DNA from: Octopus vulgaris
Lineage: Eukaryota
DNA: 64,000 nt
Assembly (NCBI GenBank): GCA_951406725.2
Contig: OX597842.1
Coordinates: 29,574,001-29,638,000, forward strand
Direction of reading: 5' to 3'
Part shown: positions 7,434-50,134 of the stretch, in pieces
Layout of the letters: the number at the start of each line of letters is the position of its first letter
Numbering within the stretch: the first letter of the stretch is position 1
The notes under the pieces: generated by a model
The model's database searches: none
Told to the model about the DNA's origin: nothing
What the model saw: the letters and a program-made list of their open reading frames with translations, nothing else
Position numbers and translations under genes: made by a program

Positions 7434-8607
7434 ATTGGTGAATTGAAGAAATGGAGCTGAACGCAGATTGAACAGAAATCGTTTTATTTCATTCTACACG
7501 TGTTTCAAAAGGCACAAATTACCAAAATCCGATTGAATAATGGGACCATATTGTGTCTTTCTCTTCAGGAAGAAAATAGGAAATCCGTTGGAAAAACAAA
7601 AACAGAACAGAGGCGGAGCAAAAACAAATCGAACTATGCTCCTAAGAGCCCATGGCGAAACTGTTTATCAGTGTATGTTGAGAACCGGTGGCTGAAGAAT
7701 TTAACGGGTCAGGCATCGGTCAATCATGTGGGTGAGGGTGTGTGGGTGTTCTTTGTGACCGAGAATAAAGTTCTGACTATTTAAGGAATATTGGATGTTT
7801 TATAAGGGGCGAGAAAAATCTACTTAGAGACGTGTGTGTGTGTATACTGTTCTATATATGTGTGTGTTGGCGTAGGGGTAGAAAACATTTTTTGTGTACG
7901 TGTGTGCGTTTGATCGTTCGGCTGTCAGTGGCTACTGCCGCGAGAACCGTTGGGTGGCAGAAAAAAATATATATATATTATGTTTTATGTGTGTGTGTGT
8001 TCATCTAAGCCTGCCTTGTCAAGGAAACCCCCCGCTGTGAAAAAACCAAGCCCCGTTTGTCTTACAGGAGTAATTCCCCTGGAGTAAATCGCGGCAGTAG
8101 CCACTGACAGCCGAACGATCAAACGCACACACGTACACAAAAAATGTTTTCTACCCCTACGCCAACACACACATATATAGAACAGTATACACACACACAC
8201 GTCTCTAAGTAGATTTTTCTCGCCCCTTATAAAACATCCAATATTCCTTAAATAGTCAGAACTTTATTCTCGGTCACAAAGAACACCCACACACCCTCAC
8301 CCACATGATTGACCGATGCCTGACCCGTTAAATTCTTCAGCCACCGGTTCTCAACATACACTGATAAACAGTTTCGCCATGGGCTCTTAGGAGCATAGTT
8401 CGATTTGTTTTTGCTCCGCCTCTGTTCTGTTTTTGTTTTTCCAACGGATTTCCTATTTTCTTCCTGAAGAGAAAGACACAATATGGTCCCATTATTCAAT
8501 CGGATTTTGGTAATTTGTGCCTTTTGAAACACGTGTAGAATGAAATAAAACGATTTCTGTTCAATCTGCGTTCAGCTCCATTTCTTCAATTCACCAATAA
8601 TGTTTTA
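7425..8607. repeat. 519-bp inverted repeat (7425-7943 / 8089-8607) with 145-bp spacer; Penelope-like pLTR
   Basis: Identical 94-aa ORF on both strands (7500-7784 +, 8248-8532 -); each arm carries a hammerhead motif. Confidence 0.9.
8455..8547 (+). ncRNA. Minimal type I hammerhead ribozyme motif (Penelope-like); mirror copy on - strand at 7485-7577
   Basis: TTC-CTGAAGA(8464)-stem II (GAAAGACACAA/TTGTGCCTTTT)-GAAAC-ACGT-GTA-GAA; palindromic stem III ACACGTGT. Confidence 0.7.
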
Positions 8608-8828: not shown

Positions 8829-10205
8829 GGGTGGAGTCTAGCTTGAACCTGCCTGAGATTTGAAACCAGATCTACTGGCTTGTTGCTTGTCGAAACAAGA
8901 GGGAAATCTTCCACCTAGATGATTGATGAGGAAGCACTCCACACCCTAGGACCTGTATTGGTCAAGGAAAGGTCAGTCCTTTGTTTAAGGTTTGATCTAC
9001 ATTACTGACTATAGCCTTTATAACAAAGAGAATCTATCTCTTCGTTTGATGTATCAACTGTGACCAAGGAGCAACAAGGGCTCTTAGGGTTAGGGTTAGG
9101 GTTAGGGTTACGTGTCAGCCAGGCTTTTGCATCAGCCTTAACCAAGAGCAGCACTTCCCTTCGCTCAACATGCAAAGAGAGGCTTTCGGCCGCGAGAAAG
9201 GCGATGCCACCTTTATCTTTTCTTCCTTTCTAGTCAGCACCATGACTACCTTACTCTTTCCCTCTCTACAGACAGACAACCTTTTTCTACGTATGAACTA
9301 CTAACTAGCGAGTCATCCTTGTTGTCACTATCACTAGAATTGCTACTGTCTCTGTAACAACCTGTTGGGCAAACGAATAGATATATGTAAATAACATTTC
9401 TTCCTTCTTGGACTTAAATCTTCGATGTTCAGTGGTTACTCCGATGTGAGAACCTTGAAGTGTTAAATCTATACGCTACATTTAGTTGTGGGTTACCTCA
9501 TATCGATTGGTATGGCACATCACATCTAGCCTACTACATTTGGTGACCCCGTCGAAGAATCACAGCCTTCACATCACCCGGCAATGAATTGGAACTGGAA
9601 AACCCCTGCGATTAATCGGCACATAATGTCTCTCTCTGAACGCAGCCCAGCAGCGTACACATCCACTGTCGAAATGGCATTCCAGATGGCAATTACATTG
9701 AGGATTCCCCCATTTTGGACGCACGACCCTGCATTATGGTTTCACCATATAGAGGCCCAATTTTCATCCAACCGAATAGTGATCAATGTGTCTCGACTTA
9801 CGCATGTGATCAATTCCCTTTCACCAGAGATCATGAATGTGTTCCGTGATCTCATTATGGCACCACCTGGTTCTGTGTCATATGACACTTTCAAAACCAC
9901 CCTAATCAAAAGAACTTCAGAGACCCAACAAAAGCGACTCCACCAGCTCCTTACATCGGAAGAATTGGGTGACAGAACACCTTCCCAGCTTCTACGATGA
10001 ATAAAGCTGCATCTTGGAGATGAGATCCTCCCTGAAAAGATTTTTAAGTAGCTTTTTCTCTTGCGTCTGCTTTCCAACACATAGGTGGTCCTCTCTTCCA
10101 CATGAGAATCCACTACCATTGAGGAACTGGCGGAGCTAGCTGGCAAAATAGCCGAGGTTCCACATAGATATTCAACAGTATCAACGGTGACACCAGCCAT
10201 CCTCA
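8826..10205 (+). mobile_element. Ty3/Gypsy remnant: 5' LTR (~8826-9538), tRNA-Trp-type PBS, truncated gag
   Basis: TG...CA LTR followed by TGGTGACCCCG at 9541; gag motif IPPFW..DP.LWF..IEAQF and LGDRTPSQLL; stops downstream. Confidence 0.8.
9084..9110 (+). repeat. Interstitial telomeric repeat (TTAGGG)4
   Basis: TTAGGGTTAGGGTTAGGGTTAGGGTTA. Confidence 0.9.
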
Positions 10206-12260: not shown

Positions 12261-12344
12261 ATGGATGTAAATAAGATTATAAGCAACATTCTGGGTGGGG
12301 ACTTTGAAGATGTCAAACAACTTATCAAAGAAAATCCTGAAACA
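12261..12344 (+). CDS. Coding exon 1 (MDVNKIISNILGGDFEDVKQLIKENPET), N-terminal capping ankyrin-like helix pair
   Basis: Pyrimidine tract and AG at 12257-12258, ATG at 12261, donor GTAAGT at 12345; GDFEDVKQLI resembles ankyrin helix 2. Confidence 0.65.
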
Positions 12345-15300
12345 GTAAGTTCACTTTATATTGCTTCTTCAATGTTAAATGTTTGTTTATTATTTTATAC
12401 ACAATATTAAATGTTCCTAAATAACCAGATATATTTGTCCATAATATTTCATTTCTTTCTTTACCTCTTTCCTCTAATCCTCATCATTGTCACTTTTTAT
12501 AAATATTCAACCAGACAATGAGGTATGCCAGAATTGATGGAATGTGAGTGAGAGAGAAACCCATCCTCACACACTGCAATGGAGTATTCTGGCAGGAAAT
12601 ATTCAGTCCAAGAGATGGGGGACAGATGGATCCTATAGATAAATGGTGACTTTGTCAAGAAATTCTCTTGCCATACACAGTTGAAGGTTTTACCGATGTC
12701 AAGGGCTACACTATTTCTTTTGCAGAAGTTGTCAAACATAACCAAAACATAGGAATCAGACCCCTGCTTGAAACGGCTTTATGGAACTGTTCTGGGGCTC
12801 ATTGAATAGAGAAAGATACCCAAAGGGACAAAGATGATGGTTGTTTATGACTTTTTACTTCATAATTGAAATATTGGAAGTTAGAATGACTGGCTGGTAG
12901 TCAGCAGATAGGACACTATCAGCAAGAATTATAAAACAGGGCTTCTCTAAGAGAGTAATGCTACCCTTGGGTAGGGATTGCGAAGAATTTTATAAGGACC
13001 AGAGAGCCAAGGTGGTACAAATATATGAAACTCAATGTGTAGTTGAGTTTGGATCAGAGAACCATCATGGTTAGGGAGTGGTGGGTGGAATGATTCTGTA
13101 AAATCTATAGAGATACTCTTGGTAAGAGACCAGAAAATGAGGCTTTAATTTGGAAGGGAAGACAGCTGACAAATGGTGAAATGCAGAAAAAACATCCTTT
13201 ATTTTCTTGATGACCATCATACATGTATTTCAATGGTGGGTGAATGTCTGCCAGTTAGTGAGGGTAGGTGTTTTCCTCAAGGAGAAGTCGATAGTGTTGT
13301 TTGTACAGCTGTAATACAGTTGTGTATGAACCACTCACACCTTCTTACATATTGTATGGCTACAAACTAATGTAAGCCCTGATACTGCTGCCGCATTTAG
13401 GCTCAAAATTCTGATCACTACTTTCATAATATTTCTTATTTTCTCCATTGTTTCTTTTCATTTGTGTCTACTTTTCCATAGCTGCTCATATTTAGTTGTG
13501 ATTGGTGTCGTTCCAAAGATGTCACAGATGTCTAATTACAAGTAATTACTTTGTAATAGATTCAGTGACTAACATAAATAGATTTTCAATCTTTTCCTTG
13601 AGCTTATGCATGAACTAAACAGTCTTTCTAAGCCTTTTCCAACCTTGATTTACCTGTGCTCTACACCTTTCTTGTAGATTTGCTTTCATTCTTTTCCAAG
13701 TAGATCCCACGTTGCTGTTTCACCAGACATATGACATCTGAAGATCCATGCTTCATTTCAAACATCCTGTTCTTCTCTCACCATTTCTTAAATCTCCTTC
13801 ATCATTATAGCATTAAATAAAAGTGCTACTATGCCAGACATCAGTGATAACACAGTGTAGAATTTCATGAGCTTTACCAGGGAATACTAAACTAAAATCT
13901 CTCTCCTTTGATATATTTTATATATCTTCTCTTTCTTCTCTTCAGGTCAACCAAATAGATTCTGACAGAAAACTTTCTTAATGGCAGCTTGTGAACAGGG
14001 CAGCACAAGTCTAATAGCCTTCTTGATAGAATCTGGAGCCAATATGGACATGAGTGACAAAGCAGGTCTGACCGCATTACATTATGCTGTGATTAGGTAA
14101 GGCTTGAATTAACTAAAATCTTCAGATCTGCTTTTGTTTTGAAATATTTTGCAATTCCAGACTATTTGAATATCCAAAGATACCATAATAGTGGCAGTGT
14201 GACACGATAACAGCATGATAGTAGTAACCAAATAACATCTTTTTCTCATTTTCTCCATGAATCCTCTTCATTGAATCACCAAAATCTTTTTCGTTATTTG
14301 TTGTCAAAACAGATTATTTTTGTTTTGGAGATATTCTTTGAGATCCAACAGTTCTTAAGATTGACCCAATGTGATTCAGTGTCTTCTCTTCATATTGATT
14401 ATGGAGAGATCGATCAATTTTTCTCCAAAGAAAATGTTATTTGAGATCTAAAGCAACAAGAAAGATTCTCAAGCTTGTTTTTGCAGTAAATAATCTGTAA
14501 ATTTCTTACAGAAATTATTTCTCACCTCCATCAGCAACTCAACACATTTTGAGATCTATTATATTTTGAATTGTGCTTTATAAGGTCATCTCTGGACAAT
14601 AAAACATGTTTTGAAGTTCTTGTTAGTTTCTATAGCTTCTGCAGTCACAAATTGTTCCAGAATTTTGCACAAACACACACACACCATCATCGTCATCGAA
14701 TGTTCCTTTTCCATGCTGGCATGGGTAGGAGGGTTTGATAGGAACAGACAAGTCAGAAGACCACACCAAACACTACTGTCTGCTTAGGTTTGGTTTCTAT
14801 GGCTGGACGACCTTCCTAACACCAACCACTTTGCAGAGTGTACTGGATGCCTTTTACATGCCATCAGAACCAGTGAGGTCACCAATTAATTGCGAGACAA
14901 AGACCTCTCGACTGGTTGAGGTGGTGGGGTGGGGGAGCTAATATTGCTGGAGAGAAAGGTGTCTTGCATTAGAAGAGGGACATGGCTCCTTCAGATGGAG
15001 AAGACAGAGGAGGGAAACACTAGGTTAATATCTTGTGTTTGGCCCAAGCAAAGAAAAAGGAAAAAATAGTGCAATAGGTGTGAAACAACATGTAGTAAAC
15101 GAATACTCTTACTCTTTTACTTGTTTCAGTCATTTGACTGCGGCCATGCTGGAGCACCGCCTTTAATCGAGCAACTCGACCCCGGGACTTATTCTTGTAA
15201 GCCCAGTACTTATTCTATCAGTCTCTTTTGCTGAACCACTAAGTGACAGGGACATAAACACACCAGCATCGGTTGTCAAGCAATGCTAGGGGGACACAGA

Positions 15301-16052: not shown

Positions 16053-18358
16053 AATATATGATAAATAAGGGTGTGTTTATATATTCATTTATGTGTGTTA
16101 TATGACCGCCATACTTCCTTGTTGGTCACTGTTTCTTTTGGCGGTAAAAATACGTCTCGTTGCCCTTAACAACAAACTTTCTCTTGCATAGTCTGTTGCT
16201 ATGACAACATTACATTTGCAGACGTAGTTTTCCCGCCAATTACGACGTGCTGTTGTTGTTGTTGTTTTTTTAGATTGATGAGAAATCTGCTATCAATTAG
16301 TTTGTCTATAATTTTCAGACATTCCATCTTTCGCAAAAGGATTACAATACATTTTTCAATGTATACCAAATATGTAGATACTAACAACGGTACTTAATCC
16401 TTGTTTTGTATTGTACACTCGCTGGGATAAAAATATTTATACTTTATACCCTCACCTATTAATATGTGTATACACACACACGTACACATTTGTTTACTGT
16501 GTATTAACGATTATACGTATTTCAGTGGCTCATATTACTCTGTCTGTCTTTCTCTCTATATACATACATATATATATACATACACATACATGCATATATA
16601 TATATATAAATATATATATACATACACATATACACCTATATAATATTATTGACTTTGACATTTCAACTAGCGAAATATACATACATATATGTATGTATGT
16701 GGGTGTATATATGTATGTATATATATATATATAGGCATACTTACACAACTGGGCCCCCACGACGAATTTGTTTCCTTATAACTTTTAGACAGATGGATAT
16801 CTTTTGATGAAATTTCTATGACAAAAATGCTTCAGATGATGAAGATTCCAATTATATTGGAATTTGTTGTGAAAACAAATTTTCAAACGTTGAGAAGTTG
16901 ACTTAAATCCTTATAGAAACTTTCAGAAAAATGGATATTTTGTTTGTGTGAAAATTTCTACAAATCCCTTTCAAATGGATTAGATTAGGATTATATCGGA
17001 ATTTAACATGAAAAAACGTTAAATATTTGGTGGATACACACACATATATACTGACACACATCACGGTTATTTTTCCAAAGTTCATCTTTTCAGTTTCTGA
17101 TGTGTATCAGTGTATATCTCTGCGAATCCACCAAGTTTTTAAATTTTTCTTCATATTAAATTCCGATATAAGTGGAATCTTCACCATCTGAAACGGTTTT
17201 ATTGAAAATTTCATTAGAAAATATTTATTTTTTTGGAAAGAAAGCCGACTCGGGCGAACTTTCCCAAATTTCTCTCTGCACCCACTAAAAATTTTTTCTC
17301 ACAATAAATTCCAATATAATTGGAATCTTCGCCTTCTGAAGCATATTTTTGAAAGAAATTTCATTAAAAAATATCCATTTTTCTAGAAGTTACAGGGAAA
17401 CAAATTCGTCGGGGGAGCACACTTGTGTAGTTATGTCTATACAGGCATGCACGCACACAGACATATATATATATATATACACACGCGGCTGTAATATATA
17501 TATATAGGTTTTTATGCGTTTAATTGAACACGAGTGTATATTTAATGTAATTGTTAAGTGAATGTCTGTGATGTTTTATGTTTTTTCTTCCTTTCAGCCG
17601 TAAAATTGATGCTGTGGCCTCCTTAGTTTCCAGGGGAGCAAATGTTAATAAGCAGGACTCATGGGGCAACACACCTCTACATTGGGCTGTGTGGAACAAC
17701 TATGAAGATGTAGTCAAAGTCCTGTTAAGTAGCAAAGGAAATAACACTTTACAGGTTAGCGAATACAATTATATTTGTGTATATAGATATGTATATATAT
17801 GTATGTGTGTGTTATATGTATATGATGTATACATACAGTTTAGTGCCCCAAATTTCGTTTCTTCATAACTGATGATCCATATTATTTTAAATAAAACTTG
17901 CTGCAAGACTTCCTTTTCTACCCCACAAAAAAACTCACCCTTTCTTTAAATTTTTTTCCCCGACACAAATCCCGCTTTTCGGTTAAGGGAAATACGAATC
18001 TGCAAAAAAATTGGCAAAAATCGGCATTTTTAAATTACCCCCACCCCCATTTCCTTCATTCTTTACTTTTTTCACAATTTTTTTTTTTCAGAATTTGCGG
18101 AAAAATACGGAGATGATGATTCGGACAAAAATTTCAAAACATTTCTGTAGTTGGGGTTGGGGAAAAAAAGTCAAAGTTGAAGAATTTTGGAGGGGGTGGA
18201 AATTCCACTGCCGATTTTTTGGCAATTTTCCCGAACCTCCGAGTCCGAAATCGGGGTGTTTTGGCAAAAAAATTCTTTGAATAAGCAAATTTAGGTGAAA
18301 ATGGTGGTGGTGGTGGTGGGGGGACTCTTTTGAAAGTTGCTCATTTCCTTGTGTGAGA

Positions 18359-18432: not shown

Positions 18433-20913
18433 ATATATATATGTGTGTGTGTCTGTGGGTACAGGTATATGAACCTCATTTATTTACTCCTCTCCAAATT
18501 CATTCCACCTGTTTATTAATCTGATTCTTTCTCTTTTTTTGAAATTTTTCATTTTTGCGATGCCCCCCCCCCCATCCACTTGACGCCATCTTTAATGTCT
18601 TTATTGTTTATCTTTTTTAGGTCACTCAGCGAAATAATAAAGGTTGGACACCTCTCCATCTTGCCTCGTATTATGGACACACAGACACAGCTAAACTTCT
18701 CCTACAACAAGATGGCGCTGATGTGAGGGTGGTGGACAACGCTGGTTGGACACCTCTACATCATGCCTCGTATAATGGACACACAGACACAGCTAAACTT
18801 CTCCTACAACAAGATGGCACTGATGTGAGGGTGGTGGACAACGCTGGTTGGACACCTCTACATCATGCCTCGTATAATGGACACACAGACACAGCTAAAC
18901 TTCTCCTACAACAAGATGGCACTGATGTGAGGGTGGTGGACAACGCTGGTTGGACACCTCTACATCATGCCTCGTATAATGGACACACAGACACAGCTAA
19001 ACTTCTCCTACAACAAGATGGCACTGATGTGAGGGTGGTGACCAAATATGGTTCGACACCTCTCCATCTTGCCTGTCAGAATGGACACACAGACACAGCT
19101 AAACTTCTCCTACAACAAGATGGCACTGATGTGAGGGTGGTGACCAAATATGGTTGGACACCTCTACATCTTGCCTGTCAGAATGGACACACAGACACAG
19201 CTAAACTTCTCCTACAACAAGATGGCACTGATGTGAGGGTGGTGACCAAATATGGTTCGACACCTCTCCATCTTGCCTCACGTAATGGACACACAGACAC
19301 AGCTAAACTTCTCCTACAACAAGATGGCACTGATGTGAGGGTGGTGACCAAAGCTGGTTGGACACCTCTCCATCTTGCCTCTAATCAAGGACACACAGAC
19401 ACAGCTAAACTTCTCCTACAACAAATGGCACTGATGTGAGGGTGGTGACCAACGATGGTTGCACACCTCTCCATCTTGCCTGTCAGAATGGACACACAGA
19501 CACAGCTAAACTTCTCCTACAACAAAATGGCATCGATGCCAATAAAGTGGACAATGATGGTGACACTCCTCTCCATCTGGCAGTTCAAAAGTAAGTCCCC
19601 AATGGATTTGGATTATCCAAATCTGTTTCTTTAATGTTTTCAATAACGTTTGTTTTCTTGTTTTGAGTCATTCATGTCATAATCCCACCATGGGACGTCG
19701 TGCTTCAACTCTCTCTCTCACACTCTAATGACACTGTAACCTACTTCATTAATTAATCATCATAATTATTATTGTTGCTGTTGTTACCTGACTAGATTCT
19801 TTACTTCATCTCATCCTTCGTTACCTCAACGTTACAAGTTCAAATCTTTCCTTTTCTTCTTTTCATTCCATATAAAACACCTCACCCCCTCTCTCTTGTA
19901 ATTTTCCTCTTTCCTCTGACCCTGGGCTAAATACAGAATCATTCCCTTACAGTGTTTAGTTTGATCTGTTTATGTTCCAAGTTCAAATCCTGCCAGAGTA
20001 TTTATTAACAACCTGGAGTGAAAATCTGTACCAGTAATATCCAGGGGTTCATTTAATAAATTGTCCTCCCTCTTTTGTCTTGTTTTTGTGTCTGATTGCT
20101 GTTGGGCAAAATACCTTGTGGTATTTATTTACCACACTTTATGTTCAGAGTTCAAATCCTGCTGAGGTCACCTTGTCCTTCCATCTTTGCTAGGCTAATA
20201 AAATACAATACCAGTCATGTACTGGGGTCCTTATAATCCACATTAATGCCTCTCCCCATCCTAAATTTCATGGCTATATAACAGTTGTTCATCATACCAT
20301 ATATAGATTGCCGTGTTTACTCAGGTGTGTATATATATCGTTGATCTATAATGTAGAGAGTATATCGAATATACGAGGGGGTACCCAAAAGTGGCCGGAA
20401 ACGCTTCTGTAGGGCAAGGCCATTGAAGTTCAGGCTTCTGCTGCTGGAAGCCACTTGATGCGATACTCAGGCATCAGCCTACCAAGCGGCATCTTTGAGG
20501 ATGGTGCTGTTACCATGTGGTGCATCTTTGTTTTGTAGGGCTTCTCCCCTGTTCGAGTTTTGCAATGGCTGAAATGAAGGATCAGCTTGCTTCCATGAAA
20601 TTCTGTTTTCTGCTGGAGAAAACTGCAGCCAAAACAGTTGTCATGCTTCAAACAGTTTACGAGGACACTGCCATGATGCCACGAGCAAAACACAAGATCA
20701 CGAGTGGTTTTCATGCTTTTCAAATGGTCACTTGTCACTTGAGGTCCAACCTCATTCAGGGCAGTTCCAGCACTGCTACAAATAGTGGGAAACATGTCTG
20801 GGTCGATGCATTGCTTCAAATGGGGACTACTTTGACGGTGATAATAGTGTTAATACGTAAAACTAAGCAAAGAAAATAATATTGCAAAATTCTGGGTCCT
20901 TCTTGGTCCCCAC

Positions 20914-21966: not shown

Positions 21967-24798
21967 GTATAATGTATATTTGTGTGCATGTAATTATTGA
22001 TGTAATTAGGTTATAATGACCTAATTACATTTGTTTTCATTGGTTAATCTAATAATAATAATTGTTTTTCCTCTCCTCTTTGTATAACTTTCAGGCAACA
22101 CTATGGTGTGGTATCGTTGATGCTGGCCCAGGTTAGTTAACAAATACATATTATATCCTCGCTCTAGTATTCAATATTTATATTATCAAAATACCAGTGA
22201 AATTCTGGGGGTAGATTTAATCAACTGCACTGCAGCAGCCTTTAATTAGCAGAATCTTGGGTCTGTGAAGAATAATTATGTTGGTAATAACAATGATGAT
22301 AGTAGTCGTGGTGATGACAGTCCAACTGACCACCACTGCTGATAGTACTATCTTTAATGGTCAGACAAACAAGATCATTATGAATTCGACCCATATATAT
22401 CAGATTATATATATCATCATCAACCACTCTGCCATATGCCCGTGGGCATATGGCATAGTGGTTAATAGTACGGGCTACTAACCCCAAGATTCCGAGTTCA
22501 GTTACAGGCCGTGACTTGAATAATAATAATAATAATAATATTCATAATAATAATACCATTGAAAAATACCTTTGAATGAGAACATAGGTTCGAAATTTCC
22601 TCAAGACACCTGACAAAGGCTGGAGGGTATATCAGCCGAAACATTGTGTTAACAACAAACAAGATGAGGACAAATATCCATCAAATGTAAATAATGTAAA
22701 TAATGATGATGATCATCTTTTAATGTCTGTCTCTCATGTTGTGTGTGTGTGTGTGTTATGTGTAAATTGTTGGTGTCTGCATTTTATCTTGTGTCCAATA
22801 ATTTATTTGGCTTCTTGGCTGCTTTTTTCCCTCTGCACATATGTAAAAATGTGTGTGTATATATGTATATATATATATATATGTATACCCAGAAAGAGAG
22901 TTACTCTTGTCAGACACATTGCACACTCAGATTATGCAGCAGAGATAAGTTAAAGGTCCTTGTCCCCAGCAACAAAGCTAAATGAGGGCATGCTGCAATC
23001 AGTCCCTATTGCTTCGTTAATCCATTATCATCAGTACATGATGCATCAACTTCCCTTCTCTTCTCTCCCTGCCTAACTCAACGGATTAACTACCCTTACT
23101 GTATTTGTCTACCTAACTTATTTACCTGTATTTGTATTAACATGGCTTTGCATGAATGCCGGGATGCAACACCCTCCACTGTTGGTGGTGACAAAACCTG
23201 ATTAACTCCTCTTTATAGGTATCCATACTAACACCTCTGTGCTAATGCCAGCACAACACCCACGTCCAGTGGTGTTAGCAAGCGTTACATGAATGATGCA
23301 GGATTAAATACAATGACATGCTGGCAGGAAAATGCTAATAACAACCTTTTCAGATGCTGATAGCTGCAGCCAATGTAGACAGCACTGTCGATGTAAGCAC
23401 ATGCAACAAGTATCTCGTCTTATGCGCGCCTCCCCCAAAACTGCCCCTACAAGGTCTGTCAAATGAACTGAAGGGCTGCTTCTATGACACTCTTCTGCTG
23501 GCCACTTCAAAGTTAAATGACCGTGACCTTCGTGGCTGGTGATTTCAATGGACGTGTTGGGCGGCACCCAGGTATCTTCCATGGGGTACATGGTGGGACA
23601 CAGAATTGTGGGAACAAAACCATAGCCACTATGTACCCCATGGAAGCCCCCTGCATGTTGTTCAACGTGCCCATTGAAATCGCCAGCCACAAAGAGAAGG
23701 TCCCTGTCATTCATTGACGAGGTAGTCTGCAAGAGGGTGTCATAAAATCAGTCTTTCTCTTCATCAGGTAGCCCTGGCTGAGGGTCATAAGCCAAGATAA
23801 TGGTTGCTAATCCTTGTTGCAGCACTAATCTAAACTTAAGTATTCTATCACAGACTCTGACTATCTCGATTACCTTATCAGCCCATTTCTCTGACTCCAT
23901 CAGTGTCCCCTACCCAGAAAATCTTATACTTATGTTCTTTGCCTGTGAAGAACCTAGCAGAACTTCTTCTCCACCTTGGATGCAGCACAAATCTACACGT
24001 CTCTTTTCAAGCATGTTAACAATCTCACCAGACCTACCTTTCAGTGTGCCGACGTTGAGAGTACTAACCCTGAGGGTGTTGAAGGTATGGGTCCATGAGA
24101 CCCTGGGATGGGGGACAGCGGCATCATGTACCTGAAAAGAAAGCTTGCATTTGGCAGAACCCATAAACATACAATAGTCTTAAACCTGCAAACACTACAC
24201 CATCATTTTATGCACTACATCATCACTACATTACATAGGAGATAAACCCTATATATATAAATATATGTATTTTTTAATAATATATTATTATTATTAATAT
24301 AAGTAAATCAATATGGAATTTTTCACAAAGATATACCCATTTGAAACACCATTTTACAATTTTAATTCAAATTTTTATATAAAAATATCATTCCATACAT
24401 TATTCAATATTCATATTTTATATCTCTGAAGAGGAGAAGGGTTGTCTATAAGTGCTTATCAACATAGGACTTTATTATAGGGTCAACCCTTTTGCGAAAT
24501 GATCGTAAGATGCTTAAAACTTAATTCAAAACTTTTAAACTTTCAAATTTATTTTATACATCATATTTATATTTTTTAATATTTATTTATTTATTTATAT
24601 ACATTTTTAATACATAAAGTCTTTCATATGGGTATATCTTTGTGAAAAATTCGATATTGATTTCCTTATATTAATAATAATAATATATTATTAAAAAATA
24701 TATGTATATATCGCTCATATTAAATATATAAATACTTTAATAGTATTAATATTATTTTATACAATGGAACACTTAATAAAAATTCAGTATATAATATT

Positions 24799-24837
<39 letters not shown>

Positions 24838-27800
24838 TGTATCACCAATTATTATGACACAATACTGTTTACACTATAACCTTGTAGTAACAATAAAACA
24901 TATTACGGATCAGGGTAACAACAACAATCCATACACAAACCAACAAACAATGAAAACAACACCTTACGACTTCCTGCAATTAACACCTACTCTCTCTGGT
25001 CTCTCACTCAGACTGCTACTATTCATAGTCGTTCAGTCAAGTCTGTTCTTGCATGGGTTCTTGTGACTCTCGCCACAACATGTAATCGAGTCCAGGACTT
25101 ATTCTTTATAAGCCTAGTACTTATTCTGTTGATCCTTTTTGCCAAATCGCTAGCTTACAGGGATGTAAACACACCAGCATCGATTGTTAAGCAATGTTGG
25201 GAGGACAAACACAGACACACAGACACACACATATACGATGGGCTTCTTTCAGTTTTTGTCTACCAAATCCACTCACAAGGCTTTGGCCATCCCGAGATGA
25301 TAGTACAAGACACTTGCTCAAGGTGCTATGCAGTGGGACTGAACCCGGAATCATGTAGTTGGTAAGCAAGCTATTTACCATAGCCACTCCTGTATGTATA
25401 TATATATGTGTAAATATATCTATATATATATATATATGTTTGTGTGTATCTCACTTCCATAACATTCATGTATATGTGTGTGTATGTACAGGAATGTTAA
25501 GGATGTGGACACTAACCAACTCACCTGTTTTATGAACCCCTTATTAATATAGCAACATCATAATTCTTCTTTACTAGTTTTGATCTGCTAATTATATGTT
25601 CACTCTTGTTCTGCTCCCCTAAAATTTACTATAGTGAGAGATAAATATAGATTAGGATGAAACAATCTGTTTAAGACCTCTTAATAGATTAATCATGTCC
25701 CTTACACATATCCCATGTACATTTTCAATTTCTATTTTTACTTCCACAAAGGATTCAGTGAAACTGGATATTGGGAATCATATGAAAATAACACCATTGA
25801 TGGAAGCCGTGTCCAGGGCCCACCTCGGAATAATCCATAAACTTATTATACATGGTGCAAACATAAATGCTGTCGACAATGATGGCAATAATTGTTTGCA
25901 CCTCTCAATAATAAAGAAAGAGATGTTCCATTCTGAGGTGGAACCCATTCCCATTTTAGATGAGGTAAGTTTTTAAAATTGTTTGTGAATATGTGTGTGT
26001 GGTTGGCATTAGGAAGGGCATGCAACCGCAGAGACTATGCCAAAACTGGCAATTGGTGCCTGAGCAGCTCTGCAGCTGCCCAGCTTCTGCCAAACTATCC
26101 AACCCATGCCAGCATAGAAAACGAATGTAAAATGATGATGAGGAGGATGTGTGTATGTGTGAGTGAGAGAAAGAGAGAAACAGGCAGACATTGTTTGCTA
26201 TTTTCTTTCACTCCCATCCACTTCTCTTCCTTTAGTATTAAATAATTCAGTTTCTCCTGATAGCACTAGTTGTATTATGTAACTAACAATATTCCATCTT
26301 CTTTCACCTTCAAAAGCATGGCCACTCCACTGTAAAGAAGGTAACCCGTCTTAATTATGTGTCATGTAAACACTGCCATCACTGTATGAAGGAGAGGTGA
26401 CCAACGACAGAGATAAGTCTTTAAATTTAAGAAAGAGAAATTCACAAACTGTTTTAAATATCGAACTTGAAGTTAAACGAGTTGAACTGTGTTAATTGCT
26501 AGAAAGCATATTTCATTATTCTTTTTCAAAGAAAGGAAAAGGAAAATAAATTCGTTTTAAGGACAATTAAATTTAAAGAAAATATATTCATGGACTTCGA
26601 AGAAAGTTTCTTTTATCAGTATGATAATGAATATATAACTGAGATTATTCAAAGTTGATAATTAGGGTTCCAAATATTGCCAGAGCTTGGACTTTATGTC
26701 TATATTGACTACAGTAATACCCCTTGCAATGATTGTAATGAAGGGAGATGTGATGAGAATGAATTTACATTAAGATGTGTGCACAAAATTGTAATGCCAC
26801 GAGATTGTATGTATGACGATGTAACTAGACAGATAGTCATAGAGGCCCTTTGTTACCAACAAAGATAGAAGCTCTCTGAACTTTGCCCTGCTTAATCTTA
26901 TTCTAGCAACTATGCTCTTGGCGCATCCACCTCCACTACTGACTTGATTACCTAGATAACAGTAGCTATCAACTACTTCTAGGTGCATATATATATATGT
27001 GTGGGGGTGCGTGTGTTTGTTTGTTTGTTTGAAAGACCTCAGCATCTATCCACTGCTAGATCTGATGGTGTTTATTGTCTGTTGTTGCAGAATTTAAGCA
27101 ACTCTTTGATTCCCAAATATGTAACGGTCACTACAGATGTGTGACTGTATTTCAGACAGTTGATGGTCACCTATGTATTGTTGTAATGTCTTCTTTGGTG
27201 AGAAGAAGCTACTCGAGAAGTCAACGACCCATTATTATAGGTATTGTCTATGAGACTAACAGTTTCAACAATTTCTTGACTATAATGTGTTGGTGTGTTG
27301 CCTCAACCACCACACCAATCTTTACTTCACTTCATCAGCCAAAAATGTTTCTTTATAAATTTTGGAAACATTATTGATATGCTTGGATATGTCTGTCTGG
27401 TGTTGGTTTTGTTGCTGTGTCTGAAGAAATTATTATGTTCTTGGTGTTCTCTGTTCATCGTTTGTTGTTATGGAAATGAGTTGCACTTTGTGACCAGTGA
27501 AACGTTTCCCAATCAATATTTGGATTATCGAAATTACCAGTAGGAAAATATGGGTGACTGCTTTCATAGATGCAGATCTGAAGATGTCAAAAATCTGAGT
27601 TTTGATGGCAGTTTTGCAGATGGTAAACAAATTCAAGTAGGAGTATATATGTTGTTAAAAAAATACTTCTTGTTGCGACCAGTTAAAATCTCCACAAGGA
27701 ATTACAGAAAATCTTGAGTGACCATAGACCATCAGACGACCCCCATGGTAATTAGAATGGCCTTTGTGTAACAAAATGTAGCTTGCCATTGTTTGTTGTT

Positions 27801-30800
27801 ATGTTGTTGTGTTATATTTATATATACAATACTCTTCCATAAGTATTTCTTTTGTTATGGCCAGTTGGCTTTATCAAGCCTGTTGTAAAGATAGGTTCTT
27901 GTTGGTTTGTTGCGTTCTGTTATTTGTGATACTTATTCCATTATATTTCCTACATTTGACATGATTTGTTTATCTACAATATATATTTGTGTAATATTCT
28001 ACTGATCGTTTTATATTTCATCATTTGCAGTGCTGCAGAGAGCTCCAACTGGACATGGATAGGAGGCTCTCTGGAATAGTAGTTTTGAGTTACCTTGCCA
28101 GCCAAGGAGCCAGCTTATACCATCATAATAATAAGAAAGTGACTCCATTGGACTACATAGAAAATCAACATTTGAAAGAAAAATTAAAAACATTTTTACA
28201 ATCACTGTAAGTATTCACTGGCAACGACAAGATAAACCAGGACATTTTCTCTTTTGTATATAATCATGTTTATATGTTTATTTAGTTTGAATTCTCCCAA
28301 TGTATTATTCCGTCATTAGTGTCTTGACTCAAGACAACAATAATGATTTCCAATTCTGGCACAAGGCCAGCAAGGTCAGGGAGGGGATAAGTCAATTACA
28401 ACAGCCCCAGTTTTCAACTGGTACTTATTTTATCAACAGCAAGGTAGAGTCAACCACAGCTGAATTTGAACTCAGCATGTAAAAGCAGACGAAATGCCAG
28501 AAAGCATTTTGCTCCGTGTGCTAATGATTCTGCCAGCTTGCAGCCTTAAGACCACACAACAATAATAAGAACAATAAACAGAAAATACAGTTGTTAGTGG
28601 ATCAAACGAAAAACACGATTTTGATGACATTCACATGATTGCTTGTGTTGACAGATATACCTCACCATCCACCCCTGACTATTTTAGAGTTTGGTGACCT
28701 CCATGAAAATGTAGTACTAAATAATAAAGTGAATGAACACATTTTGAAATTGCTATTTAGAAGTAAATAGGATTTATCTGTCTACCAACAATTTTTTTCT
28801 CTCTCTCTTCTCTGACTCAATCAGTTGTCATGTACGCTTTCATGTGAAAATAACCTAAAACACACACTAACAATGTGTATGTCATCATCATCATCATCAT
28901 CATCATTTAACGTCTGTTGTCCATACTGGCATGGATTGGACTGTTTGACTGGGATGGCATGTTGGAAGGTTGCACCTTAGTCAGCCTTTGATATTTTCAG
29001 CCCACCCTTGTATGTGTATGTTAATGTATACACACAAATCTGCTTGTATGTAATTGTTTACAGAAGAATTTACGATGTACTCTTGCTGGTTACTGTTGTG
29101 CCCCTTAATATTCTGTACTCTAAACATGTCCACAACGAAATATTTTATTATAAATGAATGTTAATGATGGGATGTGTTAATATTTTGTTCCACAGGTGTT
29201 GGTTTTGTCAAGAGAAAAAGGCTACTGTCACACTCCATCCATGTCAACATACTGTTATTTGTCAGAATTGCTGTTCTCAAATGACATTTAAGCAATGCCC
29301 CATATGTCGACAACACATACTCCGGAAAAGTGGATTTGGTAAGAACATTCTTTCTTGATCTGTCTGTTGTCTCATTAACTTTCTGGTATGGAATAATGCA
29401 TTTCATATTGTAGTGGAGACATGCAACTCCTTGTTTGTAACTATATATTATTAACACTTGTTATAATGTTTGCCATCCTTTTAGACATTTTATACTCACA
29501 CTCGTTAGTTTTTAGATGTGATTAATGCTAAAAGAGACATTGTTTTCTGACTCTTTCACCTTTTGGCTTTACTTTTGAGTTGATTCGTTTTAATTCAAAC
29601 ATGAAGCCTGGTCATTGCTCCAAGGTGGTATCAGAAAGTTCACGGACTAGTTCTGTAGCATGCCAACAGATGGCAGCACACCGTTGCGTGCACAGTGAGA
29701 GCTAGCAATGACTTTCATGAGGCGGTGTACTGGGTGACACCACTGCGTTTACTTCAAAAGTTGTGAAATTTGTGCTTTTGTGGTCATTTGTAGGCTGTAG
29801 TCTGCAATTTTCTAATGGGCAGGAACAAATAACCAATGTGAAATTTTGCGTTAAACTTGTCCAGCAAAGACATAAGAAAGAAACAACAAAACTAAGAGAA
29901 AAAGAGTGTTATGAAGTGATAACTAAGTGAGAGAATTTCAGAATTGTTAGATTAGTATATAGGATGTCTTAAGAGAAAGATGAGATTTAGAAAGGTTTGC
30001 CTATTTTGTTGTGGTTCTAAATATTGAACTATTATATAGTAACAGCTTAGAAAGTGTTGACCGAAAGCATAGTGGTCACCAATTGACTATTGATGATATG
30101 AATGCCTTACAAAAATGGAATATAGATTATTAAAAGAGACAAAGAAATTTTACTATGAAGTATAAAACTTTGAAATGCTTATTTCAGTGTGTCCAAAGTT
30201 TGAAGAGAAAGCAGTCCAGGCGGTTGTAGAGTCTGTTGGTAAGTATAAAATAACTGTAATTGATTTCTATAAATTTTACCTTCACCTGAAATATATTATT
30301 TGTGTGAATGACTGTGAACAGGTTCCATTCTTAATTTCCAATTCTTATTTCAGTGTGTCCAAAGTCTGAAGAGAAAGCAGTCCAGGCAGTTGTAGAGTCT
30401 GTTGGTAAGTATAAAATAACTGTAATTGATTTCTATAAATTTTACCTTCACCTGAAATTTATTATTTGTGTGAATGACTGAGAACAGGTTCCATTCTTAA
30501 TTTCCAATTCTTATTTCAGTGTGTCCAAAGTCTGAAGAGAAAGCGGTCCAGACGGTTGCAGAATCTTTTGGTGAGTATAAAATAACTGTTACTGATTTCT
30601 ATAAATTTTACCTTCACCTGAAATATATTATTTGTGTGAATGACTGAGAACAGGTTCCATTCTTAATTTCCAATTCTTATTTCAGTGTGTCCAAAGTCTG
30701 AAGAGAAAGCGGTCCAGACGGTTGCAGAATCTTTTGGTGAGTATAAAATAACTGTTACTGATTTCTATAAATTTTACCTTCACCTGAAATATATTATTTG

Positions 30801-33800
30801 TGTGAATGACTGAGAACAGGTTCCATTCTTAATTTCCAATTCTTATTTCAGTGTGTCCAAAGTCTGAAGAGAAAGCGGTCCAGACGGTTGCAGAATCTTT
30901 TGGTGAGTATAAAATAACTGTTACTGATTTCTATAAATTTTACCTTCACCTGAAAGATATTATTTGTGTGAATGACTGAGAACAGGTTCCATTCTTAATT
31001 TCCAATTCTTATTTCAGTGTGTCCAAAGTCTGAAGAGAAAGCGGTCCAGACGGTTGCAGAATCTTTTGGTGAGTATAAAATAACTGTAACTGATTTCTAT
31101 AAATTTTACCTTCACCTGAAATATATTATTTGTGTGAATGACTGAGAACAAGTTCCATTCTTACATTTCTTTCAAATGGATAGCGATAAAAGTAATTCTA
31201 TTCACTACCTACAAATGCAAGAATATACAATAAAGGGATTTTTATCGAAATATGGAATCATGAGACATAGGAAAAAGGTCCCTCACGATAAGGAAAATAT
31301 AGAAAAAAAGATAAAATATAAATCCTGCAGCGATTCTCTCCCCATAATGAGACACATTCACTTTTCTCTCATCTCATTGTTTTCTATATCACCACCTTGA
31401 TTATATATTCTTGAATATCATTTCTTATATACCATTTCAGATATTTTTCCTTTGCAACAATTGGTGTATGAACATTTGTGTTTCATTTAAGATGTTTTGT
31501 GCAAGTATACAGTTTTAGGATACTTGTTATCACTTTCTGTTTTACCTGTGTAGAACTAATCATTGCTCATCAGGAAAGGAAACTATTTCATTAAGGAGTC
31601 TTTAGATATTTCCTGAATCAGATGAAATTCTGGTGAACTGTGAGTTGCATAGTTTAAAATTAAAGATTAAAAGCAGCAACGTTTGACAAAGATAACAGGT
31701 GTGACATGAGTTTGTGTCAAGGTCGTTGATGACCAGCTTGGTTGACATCAGAATTAAGCAAAAGAAGAGGGGAATGTTGATTAGTGAAGTCCAGTGGTGA
31801 GGGGACAATGCCATGTCATTGGTTTAGCATGGATATAAGAGAGAAGAAAGATAAAAGGTGTTAACATGTGATCATTAAATAAGATGATTGCAACATTGTT
31901 AGATTAAGTAGGCTGTCTTAATAGAAAAAGGAGGCTTAGGAAGGTCAGTCTATTTTATTATGGGCCTAAATATTGAGCCATTATATAGGACCACGGTAGA
32001 AAGTATAAAACTATCAACCAAACCTTTAGTGGTCAGCAGTTGTCCATTGATGATAGGAATGTCTTACAATAATAAAATATAAACCATTAACAGAGATCGG
32101 GAAATTGTGCTATGAAGTGTAAAATTTGGAAATATTTATTTCAGATTCTGTAATGGTAGAGGAGAAGCATCTTCATTGGGTGTCCAGAAGCTTGGCAGGT
32201 AAATGGCAGGAACTTGGTGAGTATAAAATACCCAATTAATTTCTATAAATTTTGCTTTCAGCTAAGCTTTTGTTTGTTTGAATGACTGAGAACCGGTTCC
32301 ATTCCTAATTTCCAATTGAAAGTTTAGCTATAAAGTAAAGCTATCACTGAAATTTCATAAAATATCTACGGACGTCAGCACGGTTGTAAAATGAATAAAT
32401 TAGAAGGTCCAGTAGAGTTAATACTATCGTTTGTAAAAGGGGACTCGAAAATATTGTCATTTAAGAGTAAACAGGTGAATTAATGACAATGTTTTTGCTT
32501 GTTTACACTTTTAGTAATTTTACTGGTAGGTTGAGGCAGATATCTCCCTTAATCTGGCAGAATTAAGGGGAAAGGGTTCCAGATGTGCCATCATGTTTTC
32601 TCTTGGGTGAAGAGGACCACATTATCAAGTGTAACCTTTTTAAAATGAGAGTGTGCATTGTGTGGGACATGTTGTCATCTCTCCCCTGGCCAGTCTGTTT
32701 TTCTATATTTATTGTAATTCTTTAGTCCCAGGTCAACATATATTTCCTGTCTCTATAGAAGACAGGCCCCATTGTCGATTGTGTTCATGGCTGGATTGAA
32801 CTCAGCATTGTAAGTTAATGAAACACTCATTTATATTAGAAAAAAAGAATCTCAACAGAAAATTCAAACTCAACTCAATTTTGTTCTCAATTGAAATCAT
32901 TTCACTCTCCTTTACATTACAAATGTCACATGGAAAGGCATGAACATCACAATATCCCATTTCCCCTTGTCTGACAGTTTAACAACATAAAATATCATTT
33001 ATACTATTATTTACAGCAATGCCCCTCTTATTTACAGCAATGTCTTCTACCTCCCTATGGTACCTATATACATCTAGATAGACTGCAGCATAGAGAAATG
33101 TCTTTACAAGTACTTTTGAGCTATACTGGGGACTAGACTTGACTCAAGAGATCATGATAATATCCCCTGAGTCAGCTGATATAAATCATCATCATCATCA
33201 TTTGACATCCATTTTCCATGCTGGTATGAGTTGGATGGTTTGACTGAAGTCTGGAGAGCCAATGGCTGCACCAGGCTCCAATCTGATCTGGCAGTGTTTC
33301 TACAGCTGGATGCCCTTCTTAGTGCCAAACGCTCCGAGTGAGTAGTGGGTGCTTTTTATGTGCCGCCAGCATGGAAGTCAGTCAGGTGGTCCTGGCATCA
33401 GTCATGTTTGGATGGTCCTTTTTACGTGCCACCAGCACATGGAGTCAGTCAGATCACACTGGCATTCACCACATTCAGATGATGGCTTTCATGTGCCACC
33501 AGAACGGGGGCTAGTCAGGGGGCACTGGCCACAGCTGCAATTTTGGTTTTACTTGACTCAACAGGTCTTCTCAAGCATATCATATCACCCAATGCATCGA
33601 GGGTGCTCTTAAATGGGCCGGACATGCAACACTGGCATTGGCCATGGCTACGATCTCATTTTAGTTGCCGGGTTTTCTCAATCACAGCATATTTCTCAAA
33701 TCTTGGTCTCCTGTCATTGCCCCTGTGAGGCCCAATGTTCGAAGGCCATGCTTCATCATCTCATCCCATGTCTTCCTGGATATACCTCTTCCACAGGTTC

Positions 33801-49031: not shown

Positions 49032-50134
49032 TGCCCTGATGCAGTACCAGGAAGTGGCTCTCATGGCTTCTGATCTTAACTGATTGGAAGTGTTATCATG
49101 TACATTGTTTTGTCTTGGTATAAAAGATGGGTTTTACAGCAAATATTCTGCTCAATACCACAGATTTGCTTGTCAGTTGTTTGACCTTAACCAGTTGAGC
49201 ATGTCCCTTAGTGGCTGACGATATGTGCATCTCTGATCACGAGCAGAAGTAGTGGGGGAGCATCATTAGCCATATGTTGAGAGGGATTCTTTGGGGTTTG
49301 AATGCCCTGATGCAGTACCAGACAGTAGCTCTCATGGCTTCTGATCTTAACTGATTGGAAGTGTTATCATGTACAATGTTTTGTCTTGGTATAAAAGATG
49401 GGTTTTACAGCAAATATTCTGCTCAATACCACAGATTTGCTTGTCAGTTGTTTGACCATAACCAGTTGAGCATGTCCCTTAGTGGCTGACGATATGTGCA
49501 TCTCTGATCACGAGCAGAAGTAGTGGGGAGCATCATAGCCATGTGTTGAAAGGAATTCTTTGGGGTTTGAATGCCCTGATGCAGTACCAGACAGTGGCTC
49601 TCATGGCTTCTGATCTTAACTGATTGGAAGTGTTATCATGTACATTGTTTTGTCTTGGTATAAAAGATGGGTTTTACAGCAAATATTCTGCTCAATACCA
49701 CAGATTTGCTTGTCAGTTGTTTGACCTTAACCAGTTGAGCATGTCCCTTAGTGGCTGACGATATGTGCATCTTTGATCACGAGTAGAAGTAGTGGGGGAG
49801 CATCATAGCCGTGTGATGAGAGGAATTCTTAGAGGTTTGGATAATTCACCTTTGGAAACATGGGTAGTTCGTTCAGCATCCTTAATCCTTATTTAGGGAC
49901 TTTTTCAGTGGGATGGGCTACTTGACCAGAAGAAAATTCTAACTGGGCCCTACCTGCAAGGTCATGTGCTGTTTATCTTGATATGAGATCACCATGTCGC
50001 GCACATATGGTTGTGATGCATGTGCCTGGTGTACCCTTATCAGACAGGTAGTCATGATGGGTATACTGGGCTTCGTATCTTTTGCTCCTGTGACACTTTG
50101 ATGGCACGCACTGCTCTTTCACTGAATGATGATG

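What the first reader, a model, noticed from the sequence alone, without database searches (positions are those of the whole stretch)
18633..19590. Natural DARPin-like ankyrin array: near-invariant framework, hypervariable binding-surface codons
Seen: the 60-nt framework encoding GHTDTAKLLLQQDGTDVRVV is identical, including silent sites, in units 2-7. Nearly all differences are non-synonymous and fall in two short blocks: the beta-turn (NNKGW, DNAGW, TKYGS, TKYGW, TKAGW, TNDGC) and inner helix 1 (LASYY, HASYN, LACQN, LASRN, LASNQ). Known: these positions form the concave target-binding face of ankyrin repeats and largely coincide with those randomised in designed ankyrin repeat proteins. Fungal NLR sensors with highly conserved ANK/TPR/WD40 repeats show this same signature of concerted evolution plus positive selection. 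Inference: a diversifying recognition module, i.e. a candidate variable immune or allorecognition receptor in a cephalopod.
Basis: partly seen in the sequence, partly recalled or inferred. Interest (0 to 1): 0.92.

Follow-up and report, generated by a model that had tools for sequence, protein, structure and literature searches.

The report
Octopus variable ankyrin ubiquitin-ligase family
This repeat array is the variable binding surface of an octopus gene family that joins shuffled ankyrin repeats to a ubiquitin-ligase finger and a death domain, which looks like an undescribed set of intracellular sensors, although its targets are unknown and this copy is broken as assembled.

Summary
The array is real: nine 102-nt ankyrin units in exon 4 (18621-19590), with 17 of 18 variable columns in codons 1-14 (P=3e-7). 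It belongs to a 16-exon gene built as ankyrins, RING finger, 17-aa linker repeats, death domain, derived from the C-terminal half of Mind bomb. The family is large and was found only in Octopus: 50 of 61 RING hits have a death domain downstream. Nine young paralogs (introns 2-3% apart) hold 64 such units with 47 different binding faces. Replacement changes at DARPin-type codons run 2-5 times the silent rate (p=4e-5 to 0.05, depending on baseline), the rest of the unit is purified, and turn and helix motifs recombine freely. The pattern recurs in non-tandem exon 3 and in an independent array on another contig. Corrections: over the whole unit dN/dS is about 1; units 2-4 are identical; two single-base deletions break this copy, probably assembly errors. 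Best reading: a cytosolic 'natural bioPROTAC' sensor diversified by repeat exchange and selection, like the ankyrin arrays of fungal NLRs but not an NLR. Immune function is inferred, not shown; nothing supports allorecognition.

The parts
12261..12344 (+). exon 1, start codon, N-terminal capping repeat
   Evidence: ATG and GT donor; 8 paralog rows of the same length; same N-terminus as P0131/P0146
13946..14096 (+). exon 2, ankyrin repeats; 1-nt deletion near 13969 gives a stop at 13979-13981
   Evidence: Pfam Ank; 151 nt vs 152 nt in 6 of 6 paralogs
17598..17754 (+). exon 3, single non-tandem ankyrin repeat, variable between paralogs at repeat positions 1, 3, 5, 10, 13
   Evidence: Pfam; 30 paralogs, codon analysis
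18621..19590 (+). exon 4: nine 34-aa ankyrin units plus a partial tenth (the finding); 1-nt deletion near 19424 in unit 8
   Evidence: AF2 model pLDDT 98.1
22095..22131 (+). exon 5 (37 nt), completes the tenth repeat
   Evidence: AG/GT ends, keeps phase; a paralog-type contig splices exon 4 to exon 5 in run X14
25752..25964 (+). exon 6, Mind bomb-like C-terminal ankyrin repeats
   Evidence: Pfam; homolog P0124 matches MIB1 8v0e
28031..28206 (+). exon 7, atypical last ankyrin region leading to the RING
   Evidence: 16 paralog rows; no Pfam match
29196..29338 (+). exon 8, RING-HC finger with all eight Cys/His ligands
   Evidence: zf-C3HC4_3 E=3e-11; ligands unchanged in 17 of 17 paralog rows
30188..31068 (+). 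exons 9-14: six 51-nt micro-exons (17-aa linker units) in a 166-bp exon+intron tandem array
   Evidence: TRF period 166, 6.0 copies; AG/GT ends and phase; same units in P0123
32145..32216 (+). exon 15, start of the death domain
   Evidence: same peptide in P0123/P0124
35752..35969 (+). exon 16, death domain and stop codon
   Evidence: Pfam Death E=1.3e-6, 28.8 bits over cut-off 22.6

Best explanation
The array is the variable binding surface of a cytosolic ANK-RING-death domain protein, one of a large Octopus family that arose from a Mind bomb gene that lost its Notch-ligand-binding front end and gained a death domain. Shown: architecture, family, repeat-number variation (2-14 units in this exon), free exchange of turn and helix motifs between units and genes, and excess replacement changes on the binding face. 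Inferred mechanism of diversity: unequal crossover and gene conversion across the identical framework multiply and reshuffle units, and selection keeps new residues at the contact positions (about 0.8). Inferred function: the ankyrin face binds changing foreign proteins in the cytosol, the RING ubiquitinates the bound target or the complex, and the death domain passes a signal to death or NF-kB adaptors (about 0.55). The two deletions in this copy are more likely consensus errors than real (about 0.6); if real, the copy is a pseudogene that can still donate units.
For: Architecture; full-length homologs with Ank+RING+Death. Family: 50 of 61 RING hits have a same-strand death-domain hit within 30 kb downstream. 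Nine close paralogs, introns 2.0-3.0% apart, 64 units, 47 binding faces. In 38 unique internal units: 27 minimum replacement changes on 17.2 sites at codons 2,3,5,10,13,14,34 vs 12 silent on 25.2 sites (ratio 3.3, p=2.8e-4); other codons ratio 0.32. Strict per-nucleotide count 19/14 vs 6/18, p=0.001; positions that are variable in natural ankyrins but off the binding face 0/10. Codons 4, 9, 11, wedged between variable codons, are unchanged in 38 of 38, against regional hypermutation. First units: 15 replacement, 0 silent at these codons. Non-tandem exon 3 in 30 genes: ratio 2.6, p=0.002; ML sites at repeat positions 1,3,5,10,13. Independent ~28-unit array on C31 (separate clade, support 1.0) ratio 2.1, p=0.013. 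Four-gamete failure in 102 of 113 site pairs over 20 nt apart. One spliced family contig in run X14. Precedents: PMC4986451, PMC7815719, PMC12181330.
Against: No ligand, tissue, induction or ligase activity shown. With the most conservative baseline (all silent changes in codons 1-14) the ratio is 1.95, p=0.052. Silent diversity is also raised in the variable block (9/9.9 vs 3/15.3 in the framework). My M1a/M2a test is also significant in control exons 6, 7, 8 (2dL 9.6-15.6 vs 88 and 107), so recombination or family-wide relaxation inflates it; single-ratio omega is 0.6-2.6 in all five sets. One ortholog pair (P0131/P0146) keeps identical exon-4 units between two species. 4 of 9 close arrays carry 1-nt indels. 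Some near-identical paralogs (L006/L008, 0.1% apart) may be uncollapsed haplotypes.
Confidence: 0.55

Rival explanations
1. Same diversifying binder-ligase, but its changing targets are endogenous: transposon or other selfish-element proteins, or members of other expanded octopus families (a developmental or neuronal specificity code).
For: All sequence evidence for diversification fits equally; Mind bomb ancestry is developmental; the window itself is full of retroelement remnants.
Against: A death domain (best solved match RIPK1, E=9e-7; weak) and MIB2's role in TNF/RIPK1 signalling (PMC7815719) point to death or immune signalling; repeat arrays of this type are tied to non-self recognition in fungi (PMC4986451).
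Confidence: 0.2
2. Relaxed birth-and-death: a young, partly dead family; the framework is fixed by structure and recent conversion, and the variable codons are merely unconstrained or hold old neutral variants.
For: Whole-unit dN/dS about 1; control exons near or above 1; frameshifts in 4 of 9 close arrays; conservative test borderline, p=0.052.
Against: Replacement rate at the face exceeds the silent rate in three separate data sets (units, exon 3, C31 array); other variable-tolerant positions are unchanged (0/10); RING ligands kept in 17 of 17; 29 of 34 exon-4 copies are in frame by length.
Confidence: 0.15
3. Allorecognition (self/non-self between individuals), as the first reader also proposed.
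For: Analogy to fungal het genes only; one helix variant in run X14 is absent from this assembly, a weak hint of variation between individuals.
Against: The protein starts directly with an ankyrin cap and shows no signal peptide or membrane helix by inspection; a cytosolic allo-sensor needs cytoplasmic mixing, which I know of no case for in octopus (own knowledge).
Confidence: 0.05
4. The near-identical units are an assembly artefact.
For: 1-nt indels cluster in these arrays; units 2-4 are exact copies, so the copy number here may be wrong.
Against: 62 exact framework matches at 11 loci on two contigs with different unit orders; codon-structured variation; all 4 runs laid cover units 8-9; an independent array on C31.
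Confidence: 0.03

Closest known systems
Fungal NLRs with highly conserved ANK repeats (Podospora Pa_3_8560, Pa_2_8180; PMC4986451)
   Same: Repeats over 85% alike, repeat-number variation, positively selected sites on inner helix and beta-hairpin of the concave face.
   Different: No NACHT/NB-ARC domain; repeats are N-terminal and joined to RING and death domain; animal; number variation shown here between paralogs, not yet between alleles.
Mind bomb E3 ligases MIB1/MIB2
   Same: Homologous C-terminal ankyrin region and zf-C3HC4_3 RING; annotators call most homologs 'MIB2-like'.
   Different: No MIB/zinc-finger N-terminal region, one RING, an added death domain, an internally amplified ankyrin exon, and at least 50 copies.
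Designed ankyrin repeat proteins and DARPin-E3 fusions (bioPROTACs; PMC4308713, PMC12181330)
   Same: Constant framework; 6 of 7 design positions vary; binder fused to a ligase module.
   Different: Natural; 34-aa unit; positions 1 and 12 also vary, the last position does not; Cys is common at 5 and 12.
Expanded ligase families with variable substrate domains (nematode/plant F-box and BTB adaptors, TRIM5/finTRIM; recalled, not read) and oyster BIR-DD-RING IAPs (PMC8917759)
   Same: Lineage-specific expansion of ubiquitin ligases; RING and death domain in one protein in oyster IAPs.
   Different: Different recognition fold; diversity here is also combinatorial within one exon.
ANKDD1A-like (ankyrin + death domain) and ~400-aa 'mib1-like' ANK-RING clusters of arthropods
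   Same: Two of the three domain types each.
   Different: Neither cluster set lists all three among its top families; no homology test beyond the Atlas score was run.

Membership tests
Ankyrin repeat proteins | 33-34-aa helix-turn-helix repeats matching Ank profiles and fold | tested here: met
   Pfam Ank E=2.6e-83; AF2 with alignment pLDDT 98.1, two helices per 34 aa; TM 0.92-0.93 to ankyrin-1
NLR/STAND receptors | central NACHT or NB-ARC NTPase domain | tested here: not met
   no such Pfam match in 10 exon pieces or 7 of 7 full-length homologs
Highly conserved (HiC) repeat arrays as defined for fungal NLRs | over 85% internal identity over at least 100 aa | tested here: met
   units 1-8 differ by 0-12 of 102 nt; TRF 94%
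Highly conserved (HiC) repeat arrays as defined for fungal NLRs | positive selection on concave-face positions | tested here: met
   ratios 2-5, p=4e-5 to 0.052 by baseline; face assignment taken from PMC4308713 and PMC4986451, helix/turn
Highly conserved (HiC) repeat arrays as defined for fungal NLRs | repeat-number polymorphism between individuals | not testable with these tools
   only short contigs of other samples; number varies between paralogs
Mind bomb (MIB1/MIB2) proper | N-terminal MIB/zinc-finger substrate-binding region | tested here: not met
   gene and homologs start with an ankyrin cap; no MIB_HERC2 or ZZ match
Mind bomb (MIB1/MIB2) proper | ankyrin stack followed by zf-C3HC4_3 RING, homologous to MIB | tested here: met
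   P0124 3-124 aligns to MIB1 8v0e 245-377, E=6.3e-12; top structure rows MIB2, TM 0.58-0.60
Mind bomb (MIB1/MIB2) proper | two or more C-terminal RINGs, no death domain | tested here: not met
   one RING then a death domain; two-RING forms without death domain exist in Octopus (P0274, P0289)
RING E3 ligases | eight zinc ligands in C3HC4 spacing | tested here: met
RING E3 ligases | E2-dependent ubiquitin transfer | not testable with these tools
   needs an in vitro assay
Death-domain adaptors | Pfam Death domain above cut-off | tested here: met
   28.8 bits vs 22.6 on the exon-16 part
Allorecognition determinants | allele-specific incompatibility between individuals | not testable with these tools
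   no genotype or phenotype data

The most novel reading that the evidence does not exclude
Octopuses carry a natural DARPin library wired to a ubiquitin ligase and a death domain: tens to over a hundred cytosolic sensors whose binding faces are reshuffled by repeat exchange fast enough to give each animal (possibly each cell lineage) its own repertoire against intracellular microbes and viruses, a variable immune receptor system built from a Notch-pathway ligase.
Probability: 0.3. Interest if true: 0.9.

Novelty: new variant of a known kind. Interest (0 to 1): 0.74.

Why it matters
To my knowledge no diversified immune receptor family has been described in cephalopods, and my searches found no account of this one. 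This family gives concrete, testable candidates: sequence exon 4 across animals and tissues, express variants, find ligands. It would show the fungal strategy of shuffled, face-selected ankyrin repeats arising independently in an animal, at least twice inside one family, on a ubiquitin ligase instead of an NLR, and that nature arrived at nearly the same randomised positions and binder-ligase design that engineers use. Such arrays are easily broken in assemblies and skipped by annotation (P0121, the named model matching this gene, omits most of exon 4 and the RING), which may be why the family passes as 'MIB2-like'.

Tried and rejected
Homolog search with exon 4 against longer proteins was crowded out by generic ankyrins. 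Single-sequence AF2 gave a beta-strand model, pLDDT 66.7, rejected as a failure without alignment. M1a/M2a likelihood tests (own code, fixed tree, not PAML) were not relied on alone because control exons were also significant. Sharing of exact nucleotide cassettes between the close subfamily and other C29 members: none among 91 units, one amino-acid match with different codons, so no cross-subfamily cassette exchange is claimed. CpG hotspots: one CpG in the majority unit; transversions 25 of 41 allele pairs. The close subfamily was not a clean clade in the unit tree. No RNA holder on record was listed; RNA labels are guesses. No exon 4 was found in about 20 kb upstream of two close RING exons (L036/L073, L037/L074). 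Four look-ups of earlier findings returned nothing. Two look-ups for the recalled F-box/BTB adaptor paper failed. No complex prediction was run: no partner is known.

Full report
Observation. Exon 4 (18621-19590) holds nine 102-nt ankyrin units and 13 codons of a tenth. The 60-nt framework is exact in units 2-7 (6 matches). In units 1-8, 17 of 18 variable columns fall in codons 1-14 (P=3.5e-7). Units 2-4 are identical.

The gene. Sixteen exons with AG/GT ends run from 12261 to 35969 and keep phase except at those two deletions (phases worked out by hand from that output). Pfam on 10 exon pieces gives ankyrins in exons 2, 3, 4 and 6, zf-C3HC4_3 in exon 8 and Death in exon 16; exons 1, 7 and 15 match nothing. 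Six 51-nt micro-exons form a linker between RING and death domain. All 11 proteins found with the death-domain exon and all 33 found with the C-terminal part of P0125 are named from Octopus species, as are the 16 family-like hits named out of the best 150 of a profile search. One is identical to the window's exon 16 and named O. vulgaris. Other cephalopods are probably thinly represented in these databases, so 'Octopus only' is a lower bound on range. Mind bomb origin: P0124 aligns over residues 3-124 with MIB1 (8v0e, E=6.3e-12), the Atlas's top structural rows are MIB2, and two Octopus proteins have ankyrins and two RINGs with no front end or death domain, plausible intermediates. MIB2 has N-terminal MIB/zinc-finger domains and two RINGs (PMC7815719, passages); these proteins do not, so they are not Mind bomb proper.

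The family. In the own genome, exon 4 gave 44 matches, 40 on contig C29 (40 of 75 candidates scored), the death-domain exon 135 and the RING exon 61; 50 of 61 RING hits have a same-strand death-domain hit within 30 kb downstream. Counts are lower bounds. In several distant members this exon encodes about one and a half repeats. In 34 copies extracted from C29 and C27 it is 155+102n nt, n=1-13; 24 are exact, 5 differ by whole codons, 5 are out of frame. An exact 23-nt framework pattern occurs 62 times at 11 loci. Nine of these form a close subfamily with 4-14 units each, 64 units and 47 distinct binding-face strings; their flanking introns differ by 3.0% and 2.0% on average. Some may be uncollapsed haplotypes (L006/L008 differ by 0.1%).

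Selection. I fixed the test set from library design: positions 2, 3, 5, 10, 13, 33 (PMC4308713, passages) plus 14 (classic DARPin, recalled), with 33 mapped to codon 34; I had seen the alignments before fixing it. Of 64 units I kept 43 internal ones (first and last units and three with frame-shifting misalignments dropped), 38 unique. Minimum changes per codon, which need no tree: 27 replacements on 17.2 sites in the test set, 9 on 59.6 elsewhere, 12 silent on 25.2. Ratios: 3.3 against all silent changes (p=2.8e-4), 4.8 against those outside the set (p=3.6e-5), 3.2 against silent changes at other codons of 1-14 (p=0.014), 1.95 against all silent changes in codons 1-14 (p=0.052); other codons 0.32. 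A stricter per-nucleotide count gives p=0.001 overall and 0.038 inside codons 1-14; positions 16, 22, 25, 26, 30, listed as high-entropy but non-binding in PMC4308713, show 0 of 10. Codons 4, 9 and 11 are unchanged in 38 of 38, so the block is not simply a mutation hotspot. Codons 1, 12, 27 and 29 vary outside the set; codon 34 does not vary. First units, one per gene, carry 15 replacement and no silent change in the set against 57 changes on 838 intron columns, though conversion from inner units can import these. Exon 3, a single repeat, shows the same in 30 genes (3 duplicate rows dropped): ratio 2.6, p=0.002, rest 0.73. A separate array of about 28 units on C31, upstream of RING and death-domain hits, is its own clade (support 1.0) and gives ratio 2.1, p=0.013 on 18 units. 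Against: my M1a/M2a test gave 2dL 88 (units) and 107 (exon 3) but also 9.6-15.6 in exons 6-8, so the family evolves fast throughout or recombination inflates the test; and one ortholog pair has identical exon-4 units in two species.

Shuffling. Among 52 internal and last units there are 28 turn and 20 helix nucleotide types in 39 combinations; the helix motif LASYN pairs with 8 turns; 102 of 113 site pairs over 20 nt apart show all four gametes. With the changing unit number, this points to unequal crossover and conversion, though recurrent mutation contributes.

Structure. With a 28-row alignment AF2 gives pLDDT 98.1 and two helices per 34 residues; positions 7-14 form helix 1 and 1-5 the turn. 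Foldseek finds ankyrin-1 (TM 0.92-0.93) and DARPins. That these positions face the ligand is taken from PMC4308713 and PMC4986451, not computed.

Is this copy alive? Both deletions sit at sites that differ between units or paralogs, and 4 of 9 close arrays have 1-nt indels while exons 3 and 8 have none in 30 and 17 rows; that is what consensus errors among near-identical copies would give, but slippage is possible. I laid 4 of 24 listed runs on 19347-20300. All four have contigs with the missing base, which may stem from other units. Run X14 (RNA by guess) has one contig that leaves exon 4 at 19588 and continues in exon-5 sequence of a paralog type, so at least one close member is spliced as predicted; it also has a contig with the intron acceptor. 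A helix variant seen there has no exact match in the assembly, a weak hint of further alleles.

Mechanism and comparison. Ankyrin face binds, RING ubiquitinates, death domain signals: each step is inferred from domain type. MIB2 ubiquitylates RIPK1 and cFLIP in TNF signalling (PMC7815719, passages); the family's death domain matches RIPK1 best among solved structures, weakly; DARPin-E3 fusions degrade bound targets catalytically (PMC12181330, abstract). Fungal NLR ankyrin arrays show repeat-number polymorphism and positive selection on inner helix and hairpin, and such conserved repeats make up 0.8% of metazoan ANK/TPR/WD repeats (PMC4986451, passages and section 17). It works like those arrays but is no NLR. 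Oyster IAPs combine death domain and RING (PMC8917759, passages).

Novelty. Ten full-text searches (listings seen) and term look-ups in four cephalopod genome papers and one Notch review (main text only, supplements not read and could list the expansion) found no description of this family; subscription journals are not covered. PMC8683736 was read in passages for DARPin background. Verdict: real, positively selected, undescribed as far as searched; a new variant of a known kind; function unproven. Interest 0.74.

Noticed in passing
window 30188-31068: Six 51-nt micro-exons amplified with their introns as a 166-bp array; the number of 17-aa units varies between family members and some carry CxxC (P0131): a second, exon-level repeat expansion in the same gene.
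   Followed up: partly
L075/L038 (G000:C31, about 827800-830700): Independent array of about 28 102-nt ankyrin units with the same face-biased variation, frameshifted at least twice as assembled, upstream of RING and death-domain hits.
   Followed up: yes
L053 (G000:C9:53801000-53806500): The one-repeat form of this exon is itself tandemly repeated with its intron at about 328-bp spacing, another way of multiplying the same repeat.
   Followed up: no
L035 (G000:C29:21773000-21778000) and L050 (C27): Further long single-exon ankyrin arrays with more diverged units; L050 lies upstream of a RING hit.
   Followed up: no
P0274, P0289: Octopus ANK-RING-RING proteins with no Mind bomb front end and no death domain, possible intermediates.
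   Followed up: partly
Atlas rows 1-2: Clusters of about 400-aa ANK+RING 'mib1-like' proteins mainly from arthropods (60 and 200 members): perhaps a parallel truncation of Mind bomb.
   Followed up: no
G000:C1 near 102.7 and 216.9 Mb: Runs of closely spaced death-domain exon copies, most with stop codons inside the match.
   Followed up: no
window 60477-61365 (-): C2H2 zinc-finger array (84-bp period), split over two frames.
   Followed up: no
window 39236-40720 (+), 9530-10000 (+): Reverse-transcriptase-like ORF of 494 aa and a gag-like fragment (labels from recall of motifs, no search run).
   Followed up: no
window 7461-8571 and 49032-49839: A 107-aa frame present twice in inverted orientation (7461-7784 +, 8248-8571 -), and a 269-bp unit repeated three times.
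   Followed up: no
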